64,000 nucleotides of DNA from an uncultured Gammaproteobacteria bacterium. GTDB lineage: Bacteria; Pseudomonadota; Gammaproteobacteria; Tethybacterales; Tethybacteraceae. The stretch covers positions 12,824 to 76,823 of the forward strand of contig CAZDYI010000011.1 in NCBI GenBank assembly GCA_964509765.1. Direction: 5' to 3'. Both the position numbers and the translations under genes were made by a program. Below are positions 1 through 10,220 of the stretch, in pieces. Under the pieces are notes generated by a model. The model saw only the letters and a list, made by a program, of their open reading frames with translations, made no database searches and was not told the origin of the DNA. Position 1 is the first letter of the stretch. Every line of letters starts with the position of its first letter.

Positions 1-509
1 CGATCGCCTCGCCCTGCGCGTAGCAGCGCTTTCACGGCGCATTCGCTTTCGGCGCGCAGGAGTTCGCGTTCACGCCGATGAAGCGCATCAGCGGCAGGTC
101 CGACCGCAGCTCCAAAGCGGTATCCCGTCCGACAGGTTGTTCAGACGGCCCATCACCGGATCCTTGAACATCATCACTGCGTCCCACAAGGCGGACGGTC
201 CGACGGTTCCTTGCGCTCGCTGTCCGGTGTGCCCATTCCTCATCCGGCCTCGCCCGGAACCGCTCCCGCGGGCAACTGCTCGAAGCCCGAAAGCTTGTCT
301 CACTTGCCCTCGTCCGGCCGGGCGCATGCGTCCTCGACCCGGGTGAAACTGGTCTGCGGCACCTATGCCTCCCTTGAGCTACGCTTGGCCGTGCGAGTCC
401 AATCTCATCACGTCTCAAACCGGCTTTTCAAGCTCTGGCAAGGCTTCTTCGGGGTAATTGATTGAGGTCCTATAAAGAGAAAACAATCAGATTGCAGCGG
501 AAATCAGGC

Positions 510-577
510 ATGTTGGAGAAAATCCAACATATTGGTGCAGTTGTAAGATTGTTGCGTGGCATTATCCAACATTGTGG
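510..577. promoter_or_regulatory. Perfect palindrome ATGTTGGA-gaaaa-TCCAACAT (510-530) plus a further TCCAACAT half-site (562-577), 20-85 bp upstream of the XRE/ImmA gene; candidate operator
   Basis: Inverted repeat read directly from the sequence; sits in an AT-richer leader just before the CDS start at 596. Confidence 0.4.
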
Positions 578-595
578 TATTATTAAACTCTGACC

Positions 596-1879
596 ATGGC
601 ACAACCCAATCCCGTCACACATCCGTCCGGGGCTGCACGGCCTGAGTCCCATGAGCTTGGCAGGCGCCTGCGTCTGGCCCGGCGGGCACTTGGCCTGAAG
701 CAATCAGAGGTTGCGGAGATGCTGGGAGTCCAGCGCACAGCGATCGGCGAGATCGAGCGCGGCAACCGCAAGGTTGCCAGCCATGAGCTGTCCAAGCTGG
801 CGGACATCTACTGCCGGGACTACGGCGATTTCCTGGAGGGCAGCGCAAGGGGTGATCCCATCGACGGGACTGATCCCCTGACATTGCTGTGCGGCAAGGA
901 GCCGGAGATCAGGCGGCATCGCGAGGCTCGGCAGCAAATGGGCCGGGACCTCAGCCTTTGCCGGACCGGGGAGGGCCTGAAGAGCATGCTGGGCCATCCC
1001 TACAACGCGTCGCCGCCGTCATACCGGATGAAAACCCCGGCCACGGTTGGCGAAGCCTTCCGCCAAGGCGAACGCCTGGCCCGCGACGAGCGCAGGCGCC
1101 TGAACCTCGGGATCAAGCCGGCAGGCAACGTGATCGACGTGATCCAGTCCCAGGGCCTGTGGGCCTCCTGCGTCAACCTGCCTCCTTCGGTCCTCGGAAT
1201 CTGCATCCCGCACCAAGCTGTCGGAAAGGCGCTGTTTGCCAACGCCGGAATCAGTCTCGAGCGCAGGCGCTTCGCCCTTGCGCATGAGTATGCCCATGCC
1301 CTGCTCGAGGACAAGGAAATCAGCGTTTCCGGCAAGACCGGCCCGCGCGACTTGCTTGGGATCCGGGCCGACAGCTTTGCCTCCGGTTTCCTGATGCCTT
1401 GGGAAGGCATTGCGGAGATCATGCTCAGGAACGTCTCCGCAGGCGGCATCAGCGACAAGGAGCTGTTCTTCGAGTCAGGGTCGGACGAGCTCCATAACGT
1501 TCGGCTGAAGAAAGCAACGGTGAAGGAAGGCAGCGCTTTCCAGGACGCTGTCAGGGTTGCGCACCGCTTCAAGGTGAGCTACCAGGCTGCGGTTGCCAGG
1601 ATGTCAAACCTTGGCCTCTTGACCAGCAAGGCAACCAACGAGCTCAAGAAGGAAAAGGAGGTGGGCAACATTTTCCTGGGCGAACTCGGCAGGTCCGGGA
1701 ACTGCGGGCTGCCGGACTGCGAGGGCAACAAGGAGCTGAGAAGCAAGTTCCTGCACCTGTCCGTGGAGGCCTACGCAAGGGAATGCATCTCGCAAGGCCG
1801 CCTGCTGAACCTGGGCAATGACATCGGGGTTGACGCAACGGACATCCTGAGACTGGGATATGTCTCAAGGAGGAACTGA
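596..1879 (+). CDS. XRE-family HTH fused to ImmA/IrrE-type Zn metallopeptidase (HEXXH = HEYAH)
   Basis: N-terminal 'LRLARRALGLKQSEVAEMLGVQRTAIGEIERG' is an XRE helix-turn-helix; central 'FALAHEYAHALLED' is an ImmA/IrrE HExxH motif. Confidence 0.75.
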   Translation: MAQPNPVTHPSGAARPESHELGRRLRLARRALGLKQSEVAEMLGVQRTAIGEIERGNRKVASHELSKLADIYCRDYGDFLEGSARGDPIDGTDPLTLLCGKEPEIRRHREARQQMGRDLSLCRTGEGLKSMLGHPYNASPPSYRMKTPATVGEAFRQGERLARDERRRLNLGIKPAGNVIDVIQSQGLWASCVNLPPSVLGICIPHQAVGKALFANAGISLERRRFALAHEYAHALLEDKEISVSGKTGPRDLLGIRADSFASGFLMPWEGIAEIMLRNVSAGGISDKELFFESGSDELHNVRLKKATVKEGSAFQDAVRVAHRFKVSYQAAVARMSNLGLLTSKATNELKKEKEVGNIFLGELGRSGNCGLPDCEGNKELRSKFLHLSVEAYARECISQGRLLNLGNDIGVDATDILRLGYVSRRN

Positions 1880-2393
1880 AGCGCCTGACAGGCGCGCGCC
1901 GGAGACCGTCGTCCTTGACACCTGCGTGCTGCTCAACTTCATCGTGGTCGGCCGCACGGACCTCCTCGGGAAGCTCCCCCTGGACTTCCTGATTCCTTCG
2001 GAAGTCTGGAAGGAGGTAAGGCAGCCGGCTGCGGCGGCAATTCTCGCACGTGCGATGTCGAGGCGCATCGTTGAGATTGCCTTGCTGAACGACGGCCGCG
2101 AGATGGAGTTGCTAGAGGAGCTTCTCGGTTTCGATAAGATTGACGAAGGAGAAGCCGCTGCGATGGCCATGGCGATATGCCGAAGTCATTCCTTTGCCAC
2201 GGACGACAAGCACGCAAGGAACGAATTCCGAAGATTGAGCTCACTCCGCGTGTACTCCACACAGGACTTGATGGCGCTGTCAATCGAGCAGGGACTCCTG
2301 GACGTTGAGACTGCTGACAGGATATTGCAGGAATGGAGGGATAAACGCTCTTTCGCATTGAAGATCAGAAGCTTCGCGGACCTCGGCCTGTAA
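1860..2393 (+). CDS. PIN-domain protein (VapC-like nuclease)
   Basis: 'VVLDTCVLLNF' N-terminal PIN motif with downstream acidic residues (E..., DEGE, TDDKH); start overlaps the ImmA gene by 20 nt. Confidence 0.65.
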   Translation: MSQGGTEAPDRRAPETVVLDTCVLLNFIVVGRTDLLGKLPLDFLIPSEVWKEVRQPAAAAILARAMSRRIVEIALLNDGREMELLEELLGFDKIDEGEAAAMAMAICRSHSFATDDKHARNEFRRLSSLRVYSTQDLMALSIEQGLLDVETADRILQEWRDKRSFALKIRSFADLGL

Positions 2394-2662
2394 GCGCCGG
2401 CCTTGTGAACTGCAGCAAGAGTCCGGAATGGAATGAGAAGGGACGGTGTGCGATTGCGGTCCTTGCCTGGATGATTCCCGGCTTCACTTCCCGACAAGCC
2501 TTGTTGCCGCATGCAGGACTTCCGCAGTCCTGACCCATGAATCGATCGTGGGCGCCTCAACATCTTCATAGTCAGACAGGGTTCATGGCTCACGACGACT
2601 TCTGATCGCGGCTGCACGTCATAGGAAGCCCTCCGCTGGACATGGAAGGCTACAATTGAAAC

Positions 2663-3439
2663 ATGAAACCCGCAGAGTGCAAGAAGCTGGTGTCAGGTTA
2701 CCTGGCATGGGTGCGCAAGGGCCTTACAGTGCACGAGCTGAAGAGGGGCGGGACGTGCGTGATCACAACCCCGTTCGTCAACCGCATCAACGACTGCCTG
2801 CAGGTCTTTGCGGAGCGCAAGGGGGGCATGGTCTGCCTTCACGACGGAGGGGACGTCCTCGCAGAGCTGAAGTTTCTCAGCATCGACTTCAAGTCTCCGG
2901 ACCAGAAGGACAGGCTCGAGATCATCCTCAACGACCTCGCGGTCCGCACTGACGGCAAAAGGCTCTTCGTCAAGGTGTCCGAGGAGGACGTGGGGCTGGC
3001 GCTGAACAACCTGATTCAGGCCATGCTTGCCGTGGGCGACCTGTACGTGTGGGCCACGACGCGGCGCCGCAAGTCGTATTTCGACGAGGACGTCTCGAGC
3101 TTCCTCAAGTCGAACTCGGTCAGGTTCAGCCACCGCGTCAACCTCACGGGAAGGTCGGGGTTCAAGCACTACATCGACTACCTGGTTCCGGACTCCGACT
3201 CGGCCCCCGAGCGAATCATCAAGGCCATCAACTCCCCGAACAAGAGCTCCATCAGCCACTACCTGTTCGCGCTCGAGGACATCAGGAAGGAAAGGAAGAA
3301 CGGGGTACAGACCCTGGCTCTGCTGAACGACTCCAGGGCGGAAGTGAAGGACGGGATATTCGGCGCCCTTGAGGCATACCAGGTCCAGCCCGTGCTGTGG
3401 TCGGAGCGCAAGAAGTTCGTCAAGCAGCTCGCTGCTTGA
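2663..3439 (+). CDS. Hypothetical conserved protein, 258 aa
   Basis: Balanced amino-acid composition with an ATG start; the antisense 301-aa ORF is low-complexity R/P/G-rich, so the + strand ORF is preferred. Confidence 0.5.
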   Translation: MKPAECKKLVSGYLAWVRKGLTVHELKRGGTCVITTPFVNRINDCLQVFAERKGGMVCLHDGGDVLAELKFLSIDFKSPDQKDRLEIILNDLAVRTDGKRLFVKVSEEDVGLALNNLIQAMLAVGDLYVWATTRRRKSYFDEDVSSFLKSNSVRFSHRVNLTGRSGFKHYIDYLVPDSDSAPERIIKAINSPNKSSISHYLFALEDIRKERKNGVQTLALLNDSRAEVKDGIFGALEAYQVQPVLWSERKKFVKQLAA

Positions 3440-3620
3440 CCCTGTTGCCGAACCGGAGGCGCCTTGCTTCCAAGCCGCGTCCTGACGGCGCGAAAAAGAC
3501 GGGCGCGGCAGCCCCTGTGAGCGGCGGCAGGATTGGCCTCTCTTCAGGGCCTTCGGAATCGGAAGCGCTCCTGCGCGCCAATCCGGCGCCTTGGGCATCG
3601 CGAAATTATGGGCGCCTCCA

Positions 3621-3740
3621 TTAAAGGCGCCTCTGTTTGTTCAGACCGAGCAGGGCTTCAATGGAAATCGGTTCAATATGCACAGCCTGTGTTGCATACA
3701 GACGTGGCTTGCGCGTCTTCTTTGGATTTAGAGAGGTGCC
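3621..3740 (+). repeat. ~120-bp imperfect direct repeat, copy A (partner at 5010-5130)
   Basis: By-eye alignment to 5010-5130 gives ~83% identity, including the shared core 'CCGAGCAGGGCTTCAA...GTGTTGCATACAGAC'. Confidence 0.7.
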
Positions 3741-3915
3741 TTCCTGTTGTTTGGCTCCTCTCAGCAGGAAAGATCCGGCGGTTTGTTCAGTGCCGGTCTT
3801 CATGTTGTGAGAATTATGGTTCTTTTTTCTGCATCTGTTTCAATCCTGACCTTGAACGAAGGCCTGGAGATCACGATGTAGGCACCGGAGGCCAGTGCGG
3901 CTTCTTCATCGCAAA

Positions 3916-4188
3916 TCAGATTTTCATCAGTTTTGTCTGATCACGGTGACTCACGCGCCCGTCAATCAGCACGATGCCCTTGTGGGGCAGCAGGTCTCTG
4001 AAGACCGGCTCCCCGAAGTCGTTGACATGCGTGATGAGCACGCGGTCCTGCTCAAAGGCCAAGGCAAGGATGTCTTCGTCCGAAGCCCCCGGAATCACGT
4101 CTTCCGCGAGCAACACGTCCTGTTGCAGGTCCAGCAGGGCTGTGACGAGATCGCCTGCTCTTACGCAGGCGTCGAGGAAGAACCTCAA
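3916..4188 (-). CDS. DUF5615 (Mut7-C/PIN-like) toxin-type protein
   Basis: 'MRFFLDACV...LITHVNDF...GIVLIDGR' matches the DUF5615 pattern; 4-nt overlap with the upstream DUF433 gene. Confidence 0.7.
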   Translation of the reverse strand: MRFFLDACVRAGDLVTALLDLQQDVLLAEDVIPGASDEDILALAFEQDRVLITHVNDFGEPVFRDLLPHKGIVLIDGRVSHRDQTKLMKI

Positions 4189-4484
4189 GCGGCAGGCTGT
4201 ACGCCTCTGTCCTTGCGTATCCCCTGTTTTTCAATGACGCGCTCTGCGTACAGCAGGCACGCCTGGATGTCCTCCGGCTCGAGACTGTCGTATTGCTCGA
4301 GCAAGGTGCGCACGCTCCAGCCGCCTGCCATCTTGTTCAGGACGTGCTCCACGGCAAAGCGCATGCCGCGGATGGTGGGACGGCCCCCGCAAACCCCGGG
4401 CTTGCGCTTGATGCGCCTCAGCAACTCCTCCTCGTGCGAGGCGGTCGCCTCCGCAGCTGCGGTGTCGCTGGCGAGAGTGGTCAT
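4185..4484 (-). CDS. DUF433 antitoxin-like protein
   Basis: 'KPGVCGGRPTIRGMRFAVEHVLNKMAGGWSVRTLLEQYDSLEPEDIQACLLYA' is a DUF433 signature. Confidence 0.7.
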   Translation of the reverse strand: MTTLASDTAAAEATASHEEELLRRIKRKPGVCGGRPTIRGMRFAVEHVLNKMAGGWSVRTLLEQYDSLEPEDIQACLLYAERVIEKQGIRKDRGVQPAA

Positions 4485-4551
4485 GATCGGGTTTCTGCCC
4501 TTGGGTGAAAATTATACGGTGTCCGGGATGAAAGCCAGCCGCTGTTCGCGG

Positions 4552-4839
4552 TCATTTGGAAGGCTCGCGGACAGTGATGTAGTCGTTCACGTTGTCGTAG
4601 GCGACGCTTCCGTATGCGTACACGAGGCAGGCCTGGATGTCCTCGGTGTTGAGGTCGGGAAGCTCCTTGATGATGTCCTTGGGCTCCTTGCCGTAGGCAA
4701 GCATGTGCAGGACCTTCCCCACTGGAATCGGCAGGTCCCGCACCACCGGCCTGCCGGACATGACGTCCGGATTGACGGTGATCAGCTTCAGGATGGAGGC
4801 GTCCTGCTCCAGTCCCGGATCATATTCGTGTTCCTCCAT
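4552..4839 (-). CDS. Second DUF433-family protein (tandem paralog)
   Basis: 'MSGRPVVRDLPIPVGKVLHMLAYG...EDIQACLVYA' is a DUF433 signature. Confidence 0.65.
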   Translation of the reverse strand: MEEHEYDPGLEQDASILKLITVNPDVMSGRPVVRDLPIPVGKVLHMLAYGKEPKDIIKELPDLNTEDIQACLVYAYGSVAYDNVNDYITVREPSK

Positions 4840-5009
4840 GAGTCAATTCTACAAGAAACCACCCGCAGCTTCAGACAGGGGACGGTCTCGAAGTTTGTTG
4901 GCCGGCGCTCTCCGGCTGAAACGCGCGAAGTCTCGGGGGGCATTCGGTCTTTGAATCATTCAATCTGAGTATCCCGTGGCGAAAGCAATCGCAGGATTAT
5001 TGGTGCGTG

Positions 5010-5130
5010 TTAAAGTCACCTCAATTTATTCAGGCCGAGCAGGGCTTCAACGGAAATTAGCTCAACATTCACAGCCCGTGTTGCATACAGACTTGGTTTG
5101 CACGTCATCTTTGGATTTTATTGATGTGCC
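5010..5130 (+). repeat. ~120-bp imperfect direct repeat, copy B
   Basis: Aligns to 3621-3740; together the two copies bracket the DUF5615/DUF433/DUF433 cassette. Confidence 0.7.
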
Positions 5131-5207
5131 TTTGAGCTGGTGAGGAAGGAGAAAATGGAGCTGGTCCTTATGCGCTGAAGAGCATGGCTTTAATGGTCCG
5201 GACTGGA

Positions 5208-6512
5208 CTATGCCGCATTGCATTCCCGCAGCCAAGGCCTGACCAGGCTTGCTATCGGCCACGCTTCGGTCCCGTCGCGGAACCTGACCGTCTCGTACCC
5301 GCCGTGGAAGAGGATCGCGCGCCTGCACCGGTTGCCGGCAAGCCTCTTGAACTCGACGAGGTCCTTTCTGTAGCGCGGGTGAGGCTCGTTCGAATCTGAC
5401 ACCTCGAACGCAATGAGCTCCGTGCCCAGGTCCAGGACGATTCCGACCTCGATGCCGTTCTTCTCGCCGTAGTATCGGAACTCGGATTCGAGGCTCGCGG
5501 AGCTGAGCTCTCTGTGCTTGCGCAGCTCGGACAGGACGAAGTTCTCGAGAAGGCGTCCCCAGCAAGGCGAGGACCGCAGGCTCTCTGCGTCCAGCTGCAG
5601 CATGGTTGTCGCGAGGCCGCTGTCGTTGACGTGCAGCTTGCACTTGCCCGACAGCTTCCTGCCTCTCAATGGCGCGCGGAGGTTCGGCAGCTGCTCGATC
5701 AGGTGGCTGCTATCCAGGAAGTCATGGACCAGCCCGGCGATTCGGTCGGATCCCCCGATCTCCTTTGCAAGCTCGGAATAGTTTCTCTGTTGCCCGATGC
5801 TGCCCGACAGCTTTGTCAACAGTCTCCTTCGTGAGTTCATGCCGGCAACCTTGCTCTTGTGCAGCGCGGCAACAACGATCTCCTCGAAAATGTACTCTTC
5901 CTTGATTCCCTTCATGTTTCCTGAGGCGCGTGCGTGCACTCGCGGGTATCCTCCTGTCGCGACGGCCTTCTCCAGCGAAACCGGTTCGAGCTTCTGCGGC
6001 GGACTCCGGCCTTCGATCACCGCATCGATGAGGTTGCCGCTCCCAGTCGGCTCCTCCCCGTGCTCTTCCGGTTCGGCTTCCGGCTGCAGGTCCGCGTTGA
6101 TCTCGTGCTGACTGCACGGGCGCATGTGCAGGCTTGCCTTCCTGCAGCCAAGCTCCTTGAAGGTTGCCTTCGTGCGGGTGCGGTCTCCTGTCCCGGTGAT
6201 CAGGAACAGGCCGTTGTCGCCGCGCTCGTCCGCGTGCGTGGTGACGGCCGGCGCCAGCTCCGGCATCATCCGGATCTCGTCTACGACCGTGAGCTGCGAG
6301 CCGTCGCCGACGAGGCGCGGGTTTTCTGCCAGCATTCTTCGCGTGTGCGGGTCGGCCAGCGTCAGGTAGCGGCCGTCCATCAGCTCGCAGACGCGCCTGG
6401 CCGCAACAGTCTTGCCTACGCATGCGGCCCCTTCCAGCACGACGACCTGGAAGTTGCGCAGCTTCCCCATGATTGCCGACTCGATGTGCCTCGTGACATG
6501 CCTTGCTCCCAT
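5208..6512 (-). CDS. AAA+ ATPase of the DUF4143 (COG1373-like) family
   Basis: Walker A 'LEGAACVGKT' near the N-terminus; ~430 aa with the C-terminal domain typical of DUF4143 ATPases. Confidence 0.7.
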   Translation of the reverse strand: MGARHVTRHIESAIMGKLRNFQVVVLEGAACVGKTVAARRVCELMDGRYLTLADPHTRRMLAENPRLVGDGSQLTVVDEIRMMPELAPAVTTHADERGDNGLFLITGTGDRTRTKATFKELGCRKASLHMRPCSQHEINADLQPEAEPEEHGEEPTGSGNLIDAVIEGRSPPQKLEPVSLEKAVATGGYPRVHARASGNMKGIKEEYIFEEIVVAALHKSKVAGMNSRRRLLTKLSGSIGQQRNYSELAKEIGGSDRIAGLVHDFLDSSHLIEQLPNLRAPLRGRKLSGKCKLHVNDSGLATTMLQLDAESLRSSPCWGRLLENFVLSELRKHRELSSASLESEFRYYGEKNGIEVGIVLDLGTELIAFEVSDSNEPHPRYRKDLVEFKRLAGNRCRRAILFHGGYETVRFRDGTEAWPIASLVRPWLRECNAA

Positions 6513-6599
6513 GGCATGTGCATGCTACCACCTTCCGGACCTGTAACGATTCTGGCTTGACCCAAGTTCAAGACAGATTCGCATTAAGTGCGAATTCAA

Positions 6600-6616
6600 T
6601 TTGAACTAAGTTCAAA
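6600..6616. promoter_or_regulatory. Perfect palindrome TTTGAACT-A-AGTTCAAA in a divergent intergenic region (extra AAGTTCAAG half-site at 6564-6572)
   Basis: Inverted repeat read from the sequence; lies between the - strand ATPase (start 6512) and the + strand gene at 6916. Confidence 0.35.
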
Positions 6617-6903
6617 CGGGATTTGAAAAAAGTTCTGTCTACTGACCTGTCCGCAATCAGCAGCCAGGCAGGGATTCAAGGGCAGGGCGTGTCCCTAGGC
6701 ACCGGAACGATTCCGCCCCGTCATGATCCCGTCATCTGGCCGATCATTGTTGCGTGTGCCTTTTTTTTTTCGCTGAATGGAGCTGGCGGTTGTTCCTTCA
6801 GCCCTCAGATGATGCTGAATTTCACCTGTATTTTCAAAATTCAGCCGTAGTCCCCGAAAAACTTCACCTGTTTTGGCATTATTCGCCGCAAGGAAATATC
6901 GTG

Positions 6904-6909
6904 TATAAT
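6904..6909 (+). promoter_or_regulatory. TATAAT -10 element 6 nt upstream of ATG 6916 (possible leaderless transcript)
   Basis: 'gtgTATAATttagttATG' with a T-rich tract upstream at 6760-6770. Confidence 0.3.
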
Positions 6910-6915
6910 TTAGTT

Positions 6916-9279
6916 ATGCCCAAGGAAGCCATGGCGAAAATCAGCGCCACCGAGGACGACATCCTCCTGGCGGTTCTCCCGAATTTGCTCGCCGTGAAGG
7001 TCAGCTTTCCGTTCGTTCCGGAAATCGCGAACCCCGCCTCGGCGGACAGCATCAGGAAGGCGCTCGGCGGGGACTACTCCTCGATCAGGCTCGAAAGCTC
7101 GCGGGACGGCGGTCCGTACAGGCATGGTTCGCCCTCGCCTGGGGGCGCGCCGCACGGCATGGTCTGGAGCCTGTCGGAACACGGCTGGGGCGTGGCCTGG
7201 AAGGCCGCGCTCACTCCGGACGGTGTGGAGCTCGAGGCCAGGGACTGCGGCAACGCGCCTGCGCTTCTCGACAGGCTCGCCGCGCTCGTGTCCAAGATCC
7301 GCGAGCTGTTCAGCCCGGGCTGCTGCAGCCGCGTCGGCATGCGCATGTTCTGCGAGACAACGGAGCGCGCTGCGGGCGGCATGGTCCGAACGGAGTGCCT
7401 GGGCCCTGCCTGGCCCGTGGGCGAGAAGCCCCTGCCGACGGTTGCGGCAATCGGGCCCTCGAGGTCGGAGACCGTGTTCCGGACCGAAGGGGGAACCGTC
7501 GTCAAGGGCAGGTGGGGACAGCTGTCCGACGGCGACATCGAGGACGCGGACGCGGCCGGAGCCGGCAGCGGGCGCGACTGGGCGCTCGACGTCAGCCTGC
7601 ACAGGAGCGAGGCGCTGCCCTTCGACGCCGGCGCGGTCCGCGCAGAGGCCGCGGGGATCTCATGCACGCTCTCGCAGTTTGTGTCGAGCCTGGTCACCGA
7701 CGGGTTCAGGATGAACAGGGGGCTTTTCCCCATGAGCCTGTTCCGGGAAGGAGAGGGAATCGAAACCGGTCCGCGCCCTGCAGGCGGCGGCCGCGACGGG
7801 CCGCTGGGCCCGGCCCGGACCGTCGCCGAGATCCGCCGCGTCTCGGGCCTGGTGTGGGAGGAGATCGCCGGGCTGTTCGGGGTCACCCGGCGCACCGTTC
7901 ACAACTGGGCCGGCGGAACGGGGATGACCAGGAGGAGGCAGGAGCAGGCGCGCAGGCTGCTGGATGCCATGAGGCGCATGGGCCGCGGAACGGACGGCAG
8001 CGCCCGGGAGCTGCTCATGCAGGCCGGGGCGCCCGGCGGCAGGACCAGGTTCGACCTGCTCAAGGAGGGCAGCTACGAGCAGGCCCTCGCAGGTGTAGAG
8101 GACCTCGGCGCCAGGCAGGAGGCTTCCGGGCTCGGAGGCGGTTCCGCGCTGGCGCCTGCGGAAGCCGACCGGCCTGAGGCGGCGCCGGATGCCATGCCGG
8201 GAGGCCCGGCCGGAGGGGACCGGGAGCCGGAGCCGGAGCGGAAGGGCGAGGAGGCGGAAGATCCGTTGCATCCCCTGGATGCCATTCTCGAGATTCGAAT
8301 CATGCCCGGCCTGACCTGGGAGGAGGTGGATGAGCTGTTCGGCGAGGATCCGAACACGGTCAGGGGATGGACCGGCGGAGAACCAATGACGGAAGAACAA
8401 AGGGCCTTGATGTACAGGATGCTTGCGGTCATGATGCACATGTACAGGGGATCGGGAATTGGGACGCGCGCCCTGCTCGATGAGGTCGAGCCGGAAAGCG
8501 GCATGACCAGGTTCGACCTGATGAAGGAAAGACGTTTCGACGAGGCTCTGTCAGGGGTGAGGAACCTGGGCGTCAAGAGGTACGTGAACCAAACCCCGGT
8601 CGAGGCCTCGGCGGCGCCAGTGAGAACGCCGATTGACGTGCAGCTCAGCCGGATCGACGATCCCCATCCCTTGTCAATCACGGGACAGAGGCTGACGGCG
8701 GAGAGGGTCGCAAAGGAACGGAAGAAGCTGGAAGAGGAACATGTCAAGGCCGGGGGCAAGCTGGCCCCGAGGCCCGAGTCGCTGGGGCAGGGGGAGGAAG
8801 ACATGTTGACGCCCCTGCAGATGATCTACGAGCTCCGCATAAACTCCGGCCTCGACAAGAAAGAGGTGGCCGAGCTGTTCGGAGTGCCGTGGACCACCAC
8901 GAGCAGGTGGAACGTAAGCTGCCCCCAGATGACGCTCGAGCAATGGGAGTTGATGGACAGGCTGCGGGCGACCATGATGCACATGTTCCGCGGCAGTAAA
9001 TACGCGACCCGCGAGCTGCTGATGGAGGTCGAGCAAAAAAGCTGCAAGTCCAGGTTCGAGCTGCTCAAGGAAGGCCGCTTCGACGAGGCCCTGGCCGGGG
9101 TCGAGGACCTGGGCCTCGCCCGGCGCATTTTTTACAACCCTCCCATAGACCCTACTGCCTTTCAGGACTATCTTGGCGTGCCTAGGCGGAAAGCAGACGG
9201 AAGCTATGAAGAACCGATAAGCAGACGCGGAGATCGCGGGAAAGCAGGAAAAAGGGACCCGGCGGAACTCGGCGAATGA
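6916..9279 (+). CDS. Large protein: ~330-aa unknown N-domain followed by three tandem ~100-aa repeats, each an XRE-like HTH plus an Xre/MbcA/ParS-antitoxin (DUF2384)-like segment
   Basis: Three repeats: 'ARTVAEIRRVSGLVWEEIAGLFGVTRRTVHNW...RFDLLKEGSYEQALAGVEDLG', 'PLDAILEIRIMPGLTWEEVDELFGEDPNTVRGW...RFDLMKERRFDEALSGVRNLG', 'PLQMIYELRINSGLDKKEVAELFGVPWTTTSRW...RFELLKEGRFDEALAGVEDLG'. Confidence 0.6.
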   Translation: MPKEAMAKISATEDDILLAVLPNLLAVKVSFPFVPEIANPASADSIRKALGGDYSSIRLESSRDGGPYRHGSPSPGGAPHGMVWSLSEHGWGVAWKAALTPDGVELEARDCGNAPALLDRLAALVSKIRELFSPGCCSRVGMRMFCETTERAAGGMVRTECLGPAWPVGEKPLPTVAAIGPSRSETVFRTEGGTVVKGRWGQLSDGDIEDADAAGAGSGRDWALDVSLHRSEALPFDAGAVRAEAAGISCTLSQFVSSLVTDGFRMNRGLFPMSLFREGEGIETGPRPAGGGRDGPLGPARTVAEIRRVSGLVWEEIAGLFGVTRRTVHNWAGGTGMTRRRQEQARRLLDAMRRMGRGTDGSARELLMQAGAPGGRTRFDLLKEGSYEQALAGVEDLGARQEASGLGGGSALAPAEADRPEAAPDAMPGGPAGGDREPEPERKGEEAEDPLHPLDAILEIRIMPGLTWEEVDELFGEDPNTVRGWTGGEPMTEEQRALMYRMLAVMMHMYRGSGIGTRALLDEVEPESGMTRFDLMKERRFDEALSGVRNLGVKRYVNQTPVEASAAPVRTPIDVQLSRIDDPHPLSITGQRLTAERVAKERKKLEEEHVKAGGKLAPRPESLGQGEEDMLTPLQMIYELRINSGLDKKEVAELFGVPWTTTSRWNVSCPQMTLEQWELMDRLRATMMHMFRGSKYATRELLMEVEQKSCKSRFELLKEGRFDEALAGVEDLGLARRIFYNPPIDPTAFQDYLGVPRRKADGSYEEPISRRGDRGKAGKRDPAELGE

Positions 9280-10220
9280 CGCATCCCATTCCGGAAGCGG
9301 AGCGGAAGCGGATCAACAAGGCGATGCAAGACTGGCGCCAGGGCGACATCGTGTTGGGAGACGACCTGGAGGCTGTTCACATGGCTGACCTGTCACTCGC
9401 GCACAGCCCTCAGTCCCGGGACTGCGTAAGGGAGCTTCTATTGCAGGGGCGGGTAGCGGAACCAGGGACGGTCCCGGTGCTGGACGACAATGTGCACGGG
9501 ATGGTCATGCTGAGCCATTCCTGCGAGATCGTGCGGGACTGCGTCAACCGTCCGTTCGTCGTGCTGGCGCCCTTGGTTCCGGTCAGCAAGGAATGGATGA
9601 GGGAAATCCGCCTCAGGAGAAGGCTGAGGTACATATTCGTCCCTGCAACGGAAGGGGAGCTCCTGGTCGGCGACCTTGAGAAGTCGACGATATACGAGAA
9701 GGCTTCGGTCGCGGGATGGAAGCGCACTCCCGGCTGGAAGGATGACCTGGAAGGCAAGGTCTTTGCCGACACGCTCGCCCACAAGTTCTCGCGCGTTGCC
9801 TTTCCTGACGACTTCCTGCAAGCCTGCAGCGCAATGAGCGACCACATAACTTCTGAGCACAAAAAGGATTCAGCGGAGGGGGCGATGCTCCGAAAACTGG
9901 ATGAGATCCTGGTGTGCCCGCGCCCTTCTTGGGACAGCGAAAAGGTGTCCCTCGACTGGTGGTTCGTCATCGGAGAATCCGTCAAGGAAGTGGACGCGGA
10001 CAAGTGGACGCGGCATCTCAACACGTGGGTTTCACTGTTTGACTGTTCAGGTCGTTACAGACTAGGAAAAAAGACTGCGTGCAAGCACACCCAGTTCACG
10101 GCAGACGACTACAGGAAGAGCTTCAGGCTCGACTTCGACAGCCTGTCCTTCCCGGATGGGCCGACTGGAGCCGGCGGCATGGATCAGAAAAAATCCGTCG
10201 CCGATGCTTCATCGCCGTGA
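9276..10220 (+). CDS. Hypothetical 314-aa protein coupled by ATGA overlap to the triple-repeat gene
   Basis: Start codon overlaps the upstream stop (ATGA); no recognisable motif, and no obvious RES motif. Confidence 0.5.
   Translation: MTHPIPEAERKRINKAMQDWRQGDIVLGDDLEAVHMADLSLAHSPQSRDCVRELLLQGRVAEPGTVPVLDDNVHGMVMLSHSCEIVRDCVNRPFVVLAPLVPVSKEWMREIRLRRRLRYIFVPATEGELLVGDLEKSTIYEKASVAGWKRTPGWKDDLEGKVFADTLAHKFSRVAFPDDFLQACSAMSDHITSEHKKDSAEGAMLRKLDEILVCPRPSWDSEKVSLDWWFVIGESVKEVDADKWTRHLNTWVSLFDCSGRYRLGKKTACKHTQFTADDYRKSFRLDFDSLSFPDGPTGAGGMDQKKSVADASSP

What the first reader, a model, noticed from the sequence alone, without database searches (positions are those of the whole stretch)
6916..10220. 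Protein with three tandem Xre/antitoxin-like (HTH + DUF2384-like) repeats coupled to an unknown 314-aa partner
Xre/MbcA/ParS-type antitoxins are normally ~150-aa single-module proteins that neutralise RES-family toxins. Here three divergent but clearly homologous ~100-aa modules are concatenated behind a ~330-aa N-domain of unknown function. Each starts with an XRE-like HTH ('...ELFGV.rrTV..W.gG') and ends '...RF(D/E)L(L/M)KE(G/R).(Y/F)(E/D).AL.GV..LG'. The gene overlaps (ATGA) a downstream 314-aa protein with no recognisable RES motif. It may be a novel multi-valent antitoxin/regulator scaffold or a new TA-like pair. GC is ~58%, lower than the flanks, and the locus is flanked by operator-like palindromes.
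Basis: partly seen in the sequence, partly recalled or inferred. Interest (0 to 1): 0.6.

Follow-up and report, generated by a model that had tools for sequence, protein, structure and literature searches.

The report
Fused three-part toxin–antitoxin-like gene cassette
This locus is an unusual fused form of a widespread, unstudied three-gene cassette (TIGR04255 protein, MbcA-like antitoxin-type regulator, unknown 290-aa protein), probably a new toxin–antitoxin-like system that lacks the toxin type normally paired with this antitoxin.

Summary
Gene A (6916-9279, 787 aa) carries three homologous ~100-aa modules and overlaps gene B (9276-10220, 314 aa) by ATGA.

- **Modules:** a module profile matches the M. 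tuberculosis antitoxin MbcA over its whole length (hhalign 96%, E 4e-9). Pfam DUF2384 itself does not hit.
- **N-domain:** the "unknown" N-domain is a divergent TIGR04255-family domain. Its model has a weakly TBP-like two-repeat fold.
- **Gene B:** B matches nothing in Pfam, NCBIfam, PADLOC, PHROGs, PDB sequences, or PDB and viral folds. It shows no RES or ADP-ribosyltransferase similarity.
- **Wider context:** B homologues (at least 1,757 clusters at 50% identity, many phyla, six plasmids, no phages) almost always sit in a tight three-gene operon, N then M then B (69 of 80 loci intact). M there has one module.
- **This lineage:** only the window's clade fuses N to M and multiplies the module to two or three. 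Only module 1 keeps the conserved helix-turn-helix residues.
- **Evolution:** the cassette changes protein sequence 4-10 times faster than adjacent housekeeping genes.

Best reading: an undescribed tripartite toxin–antitoxin-like cassette. Mechanism and toxicity remain inferred.

The parts
6902..6909 (+). TGTATAAT, a -10-like box 6 nt upstream of the ATG at 6916. It implies a leaderless or near-leaderless transcript.
   Evidence: It is the only part of the 400-nt intergenic region conserved with the syntenic orthologue L087, together with the first codons. Function is inferred.
6916..9279 (+). Gene A, 787 aa: a TIGR04255-like N-domain fused to three MbcA-like modules
   Evidence: ORF. An identical 787-aa protein is called by NCBI. 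An 83%-identical 788-aa orthologue sits in syntenic L087. Domain map from HMM scans.
6916..7800 (+). N-domain (aa 1-295), a divergent TIGR04255-family domain; HMM-matched core at 7147-7707
   Evidence: An HMM built from two canonical TIGR04255 proteins hits it at E 2.5e-14. Family-invariant residues Y54, W95, R139, G141, R143, W200, W222 and D225 are retained. AF2 model pLDDT 78.6, pTM 0.77. Best PDB folds are TBP, AdoMetDC and McsB, all weak (E 1e-3, TM 0.26-0.35). The NCBIfam TIGR04255 model itself does not hit the window protein.
7807..8118 (+). Module 1, MbcA-like (HTH plus C-terminal helical half); the only module with an intact canonical HTH
   Evidence: Keeps 16 of 19 conserved HTH positions and 8 of 9 C-half positions; HTH score 69 bits. 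It is 96% identical to L087 with dN/dS 0.27, the most constrained part of the gene.
8269..8577 (+). Module 2, MbcA-like with a degenerate HTH
   Evidence: Keeps 11 of 19 HTH positions; V26, S27, R28, R29, H32 and A35 are lost. HTH 38 bits, C-half 47 bits. It groups with the second modules of two-module relatives.
8809..9117 (+). Module 3, MbcA-like with a degenerate HTH; a duplicate of the module-2 lineage
   Evidence: Keeps 9 of 19 HTH positions. HTH 18 bits, C-half 38 bits. It is 55% identical to module 2 and clusters with it.
9276..10220 (+). Gene B, 314 aa, of a family with no Pfam or NCBIfam model; candidate effector or toxin
   Evidence: ATGA overlap with gene A. At least 1,757 representatives of 50%-identity clusters at E<=1e-3. 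Invariant W20, Q22, D24, C83 and R173. AF2 pLDDT 84.9, but only one of the five models is confident. No PDB or viral fold match at E<=1e-3. No PDB sequence match. No Pfam hit in 127 members.
6557..6635 (.). Cluster of imperfect palindromes, including TTTGAACT-A-AGTTCAAA at 6603-6619; role unknown and membership of this system doubtful
   Evidence: Inverted repeats I1-I3. Not conserved in L087. They lie nearer the divergent gene's start at 6512.

Best explanation
**What is shown.**
- The locus is a lineage-specific, fused and expanded version of a conserved, horizontally mobile three-gene cassette, N then M then B.
- N is a TIGR04255-family protein of about 270 aa whose model has a weakly TBP-like two-repeat alpha/beta fold.
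- M is a protein of about 230 aa with one module homologous over its whole length to the antitoxin MbcA.
- B is a protein of about 290 aa with no detectable known family or fold.
- In the window, N and M are one polypeptide and the M module is present three times.

**What is inferred.**
- The cassette works like a type II toxin-antitoxin or conflict module.
- The MbcA-like module binds and silences an effector through its C-terminal half. In ParS-ParT and MbcA-MbcT the antitoxin's C-terminus blocks the toxin's active site.
- Its HTH represses the operon.
- B, the gene immediately downstream of the antitoxin-like gene as in mbcAT and parST, is the more likely effector (about 60:40 over N).
- N physically cooperates with M, as their fusion indicates, and acts as a sensor or regulator.
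- In the window protein only module 1 keeps the DNA-reading residues.
- Modules 2 and 3 keep the C-terminal half and would serve as extra effector-binding sites or as in-chain dimer partners. This would hard-wire a multi-antitoxin stoichiometry into one chain.
For: Anatomy and homology:
- Module is homologous to MbcA and matches the Xre-like antitoxin HTH family.
- The N, M, B order is kept on one strand in all 80 genome loci, with 69 of them intact.
- It is also kept on plasmids where B is only 25-35% identical.
- N overlaps M by 4 nt in 68 of 76 loci. M-to-B gaps are -11 to +19 nt. The window has an ATGA overlap.
- Independent N-M fusions with two modules (605 aa, L091) and three modules (window, L087) link N and M physically.

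Mobile, conflict-like behaviour:
- Flanking genes are not conserved between loci.
- The cassette is present on conjugative plasmids next to integrases, a relaxase and an IS element.
- The phyletic spread is sporadic across more than 10 phyla.
- dN/dS is 0.53-0.61, against 0.06-0.14 for adjacent housekeeping genes at similar dS.
- The window cassette sits at the edge of a lower-GC stretch (1-6500) holding other TA-like and defence-candidate genes.

Component roles:
- M is the least often disrupted component: 1 locus, against 5 for N and 5 for B. This evidence is weak.
- The HTH decays in modules 2 and 3 while the C-halves are retained.
- The known RES-Xre complex has 4:2 stoichiometry (PMC12204516), and the ParS and MbcA C-termini block the toxin active site (PMC7758455).
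Against: - No toxicity, binding or DNA-binding data exist.
- B and N show no similarity to any known toxin.
- PADLOC has no model for N, M or B.
- Immediate neighbours across loci are mostly metabolic genes, not defence islands.
- Pfam DUF2384 is not among the matches listed, and the C-half alone is not significantly MbcA-like.
- dN/dS around 0.5 may simply mean relaxed constraint.
- Only one of the five AF2 models of B was confident, so the absence of a fold match is not strong evidence of a new fold.
Confidence: 0.45

Rival explanations
1. Reverse polarity. N (TIGR04255) is the toxin or effector and M is its antitoxin, with the toxin gene first as in higBA and mqsRA. The N-M fusion would then be a single-chain toxin-antitoxin, like fused systems such as CapRel. 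B would be an accessory, sensor or second effector.
For: - N-to-M coupling is the tightest junction, with a 4-nt overlap in 68 of 76 loci.
- N and M are the pair that fuses.
- N has many invariant Arg, Asp, Tyr and Trp residues suggesting an active or binding site.
- The M HTH also gives weak hits to MqsA-type and HigA-type antitoxins, whose toxins are encoded upstream.
- N is lost or disrupted as often as B.
Against: - In the MbcA, ParS and Xre family the toxin gene lies downstream of the antitoxin gene, and that is B's position here (established knowledge, PMC7758455).
- N's closest folds are non-toxin scaffolds, and only weakly.
- B is as strictly conserved in the cassette as N.
Confidence: 0.2
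2. Not a conflict system. M is an ordinary Xre-type transcription factor, and N and B are ligand-binding or enzymatic proteins of an unknown accessory pathway or stress response. The repeats in the window merely tune oligomerisation.
For: - Neighbours are mostly metabolic genes.
- There is no PADLOC hit and no phage-borne copy.
- RefSeq annotates M as 'transcriptional regulator'.
- A TBP-like or helix-grip-like fold is common in ligand binders.
Against: - M's whole-length similarity is to an antitoxin, not just to an HTH.
- The cassette is autonomous with no conserved fourth gene or pathway context.
- It is plasmid-borne and sporadic.
- Protein evolution is fast relative to the neighbours.
Confidence: 0.2
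3. The fusion and repeats are an assembly artefact or a decaying pseudogene.
For: - The locus comes from metagenome-type data.
- GC content and divergence change along gene A.
Against: - The same 787/788-aa architecture is found in independent assemblies at 100% and 83% identity, and a two-module fusion at about 40%.
- The reading frame is intact.
- All regions except the short low-complexity linker 1 have dN/dS below 1.
- Family-invariant residues are retained.
Confidence: 0.02

Closest known systems
RES-Xre / MbcTA / ParST type II toxin-antitoxin family (antitoxin made of an Xre HTH plus a DUF2384 toxin-binding region; PDB 6FKG, 6D0H, 8QNL)
   Same: - Each module aligns with MbcA over HTH plus C-terminal half (hhalign 96%, E 3.9e-9; PDB profile E 3.4e-6).
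- The antitoxin-like gene lies directly upstream of, and is translationally coupled to, the candidate effector.
- The cassettes are small and mobile, and some are plasmid-borne.
- Complexes with several antitoxin copies per toxin are known in this family (4:2 in P. putida, PMC12204516).
   Different: - No RES or ADP-ribosyltransferase partner: B and N have no such sequence or fold match.
- A third, obligatory TIGR04255 gene is present.
- M is about 230 aa with extra N- and C-terminal regions.
- Pfam PF09722 is not among the matches listed.
- In the window the antitoxin-like unit is triplicated and fused to N.
TIGR04255 family (NCBIfam 'sporadically distributed' uncharacterised proteins)
   Same: - Canonical N proteins of the cassette score 126-136 bits against a cutoff of 30.
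- RefSeq and JGI name them TIGR04255 family proteins.
- The window N-domain keeps the family's invariant residues.
   Different: - The window domain is too divergent for the NCBIfam model itself and is fused to M.
- No function, structure or paper is on record for the family.
Tripartite and fused toxin-antitoxin systems (for example toxin-antitoxin-chaperone systems, omega-epsilon-zeta, and single-chain fused toxin-antitoxins); from my own knowledge
   Same: Three tightly coupled genes, one of which is an HTH antitoxin-like protein. Fusion of two components occurs in some lineages.
   Different: No homology of N or B to the chaperones, regulators or toxins of those systems was detected. The comparison is by analogy only.

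Membership tests
Xre/MbcA/ParS antitoxin family (RES-Xre type II TA) | N-terminal Xre-type helix-turn-helix | tested here: met
   Of 66 modules, Pfam HTH_3 hits 56, HTH_31 hits 45 and PF20432 Xre-like-HTH hits 47. Window modules 2 and 3 are degenerate in the recognition helix.
Xre/MbcA/ParS antitoxin family (RES-Xre type II TA) | C-terminal toxin-binding region (DUF2384, PF09722) | tested here: inconclusive
   The whole-module alignment to MbcA runs through the C-terminal helices, with 81 columns aligned at 96% probability. However, PF09722 is not among the matches listed, and the C-half profile alone does not retrieve MbcA from the PDB.
Xre/MbcA/ParS antitoxin family (RES-Xre type II TA) | Cognate toxin with a RES domain or ADP-ribosyltransferase-like fold | tested here: not met
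Xre/MbcA/ParS antitoxin family (RES-Xre type II TA) | Two-gene operon with an antitoxin of about 110-150 aa | tested here: not met
   The cassette has three genes, N, M (median 228 aa) and B. In the window it is a 787-aa fusion plus B.
Type II toxin-antitoxin systems in general | Toxin arrests growth and the antitoxin neutralises it by direct binding | not testable with these tools
   This needs expression and pull-down experiments. Only indirect support exists: coupling, mobility, fast evolution, and M being rarely disrupted.
Type II toxin-antitoxin systems in general | Compact, translationally coupled, horizontally mobile operon with sporadic distribution | tested here: met
   4-nt overlaps. 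Non-conserved flanks. More than 10 phyla. Six plasmids, four of them conjugative.
TIGR04255 family | Score above the NCBIfam TIGR04255 cutoff (30 bits) | tested here: not met
   The window protein gives no TIGR04255 hit at E<=1. Relatives pass: L002 135.6 bits, L001 125.9 bits, and fused L003 36.1 bits.
TIGR04255 family | Homology to family members with the invariant residues retained | tested here: met
   An HMM of two canonical members hits the window at E 2.5e-14. BLASTP gives 20-28% identity over 58-88% of the domain. Invariant Y54, W95, R139, G141, R143, W200, W222 and D225 are kept.
Known anti-phage defence systems (PADLOC-DB v2) | Match of any component to a PADLOC model | tested here: not met
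   No hit for N or B. M gives only weak HTH-level hits to capH, RmrA and mad1. The upstream neighbour 5208-6512 is PDC-S01, but it is not part of the cassette.
MazF/PemK/CcdB toxins (considered for the N-terminal half of B) | Profile similarity to MazF-family sequences | tested here: not met
   hhalign probability is 0.3%, with only 'GDI' aligned. Foldseek MazF hits have E 0.5-1.

The most novel reading that the evidence does not exclude
N, M and B form a previously undescribed, widespread tripartite conflict system (toxin-antitoxin or abortive-infection type). An MbcA-like adaptor or antitoxin couples a TIGR04255 sensor with a TBP-like fold to an effector of a new fold and unknown chemistry. 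That would give a function to two large orphan families, and the window's protein would be a natural single-chain, multivalent version of it.
Probability: 0.35. Interest if true: 0.75.

Novelty: new variant of a known kind. Interest (0 to 1): 0.6.

Why it matters
- It would show that the MbcA/ParS/Xre antitoxin module is not tied to RES or ADP-ribosyltransferase toxins. It can be wired to entirely different partners.
- It would assign a first functional context to the orphan TIGR04255 family. It would do the same for a protein family of more than 1,700 clusters that has no database model.
- The natural N-M fusions are a Rosetta-stone clue that N and M interact.
- The three-module chain offers a built-in experiment on antitoxin valency and on separating DNA binding from toxin binding.
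- Cultured carriers make the idea testable: Chroococcidiopsis thermalis PCC 7203 pCHRO.01, Rhizobium etli Mim1 pRetMIM1e, Methylobacterium iners DSM 19015 and Calothrix PCC 7716.

Tried and rejected
1. **Full-length gene A homologue search.** It returned only two near-identical proteins because the candidate list saturated, so the search was wasted.
2. **B as a RES or ADP-ribosyltransferase toxin.** No Pfam, NCBIfam, PADLOC or PHROGs hit. No PDB sequence hit. No Foldseek hit in the PDB or in viral structures.
3. **The N-terminal half of B as a MazF/PemK-like barrel.** This was suggested by motif order and by weak Foldseek hits. hhalign rejected it at 0.3% probability.
4. **C-terminal half of the module alone against the PDB.** It gave only chance ankyrin-like hits, so the DUF2384 link rests on the whole-module alignment.
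5. **Conserved M tail motif in the window protein.** The motif (…RRP..P..L..A.QDR…) is not significantly present there.
6. **A conserved fourth gene or defence-island context.** None was found. Flanks are heterogeneous and mostly metabolic.
7. **Operator palindromes.** They occur upstream only and are not conserved in the orthologue. No Rfam family matches the intergenic region.
8. **Literature on TIGR04255, IPR026349 or CHP04255.** Nothing was found.
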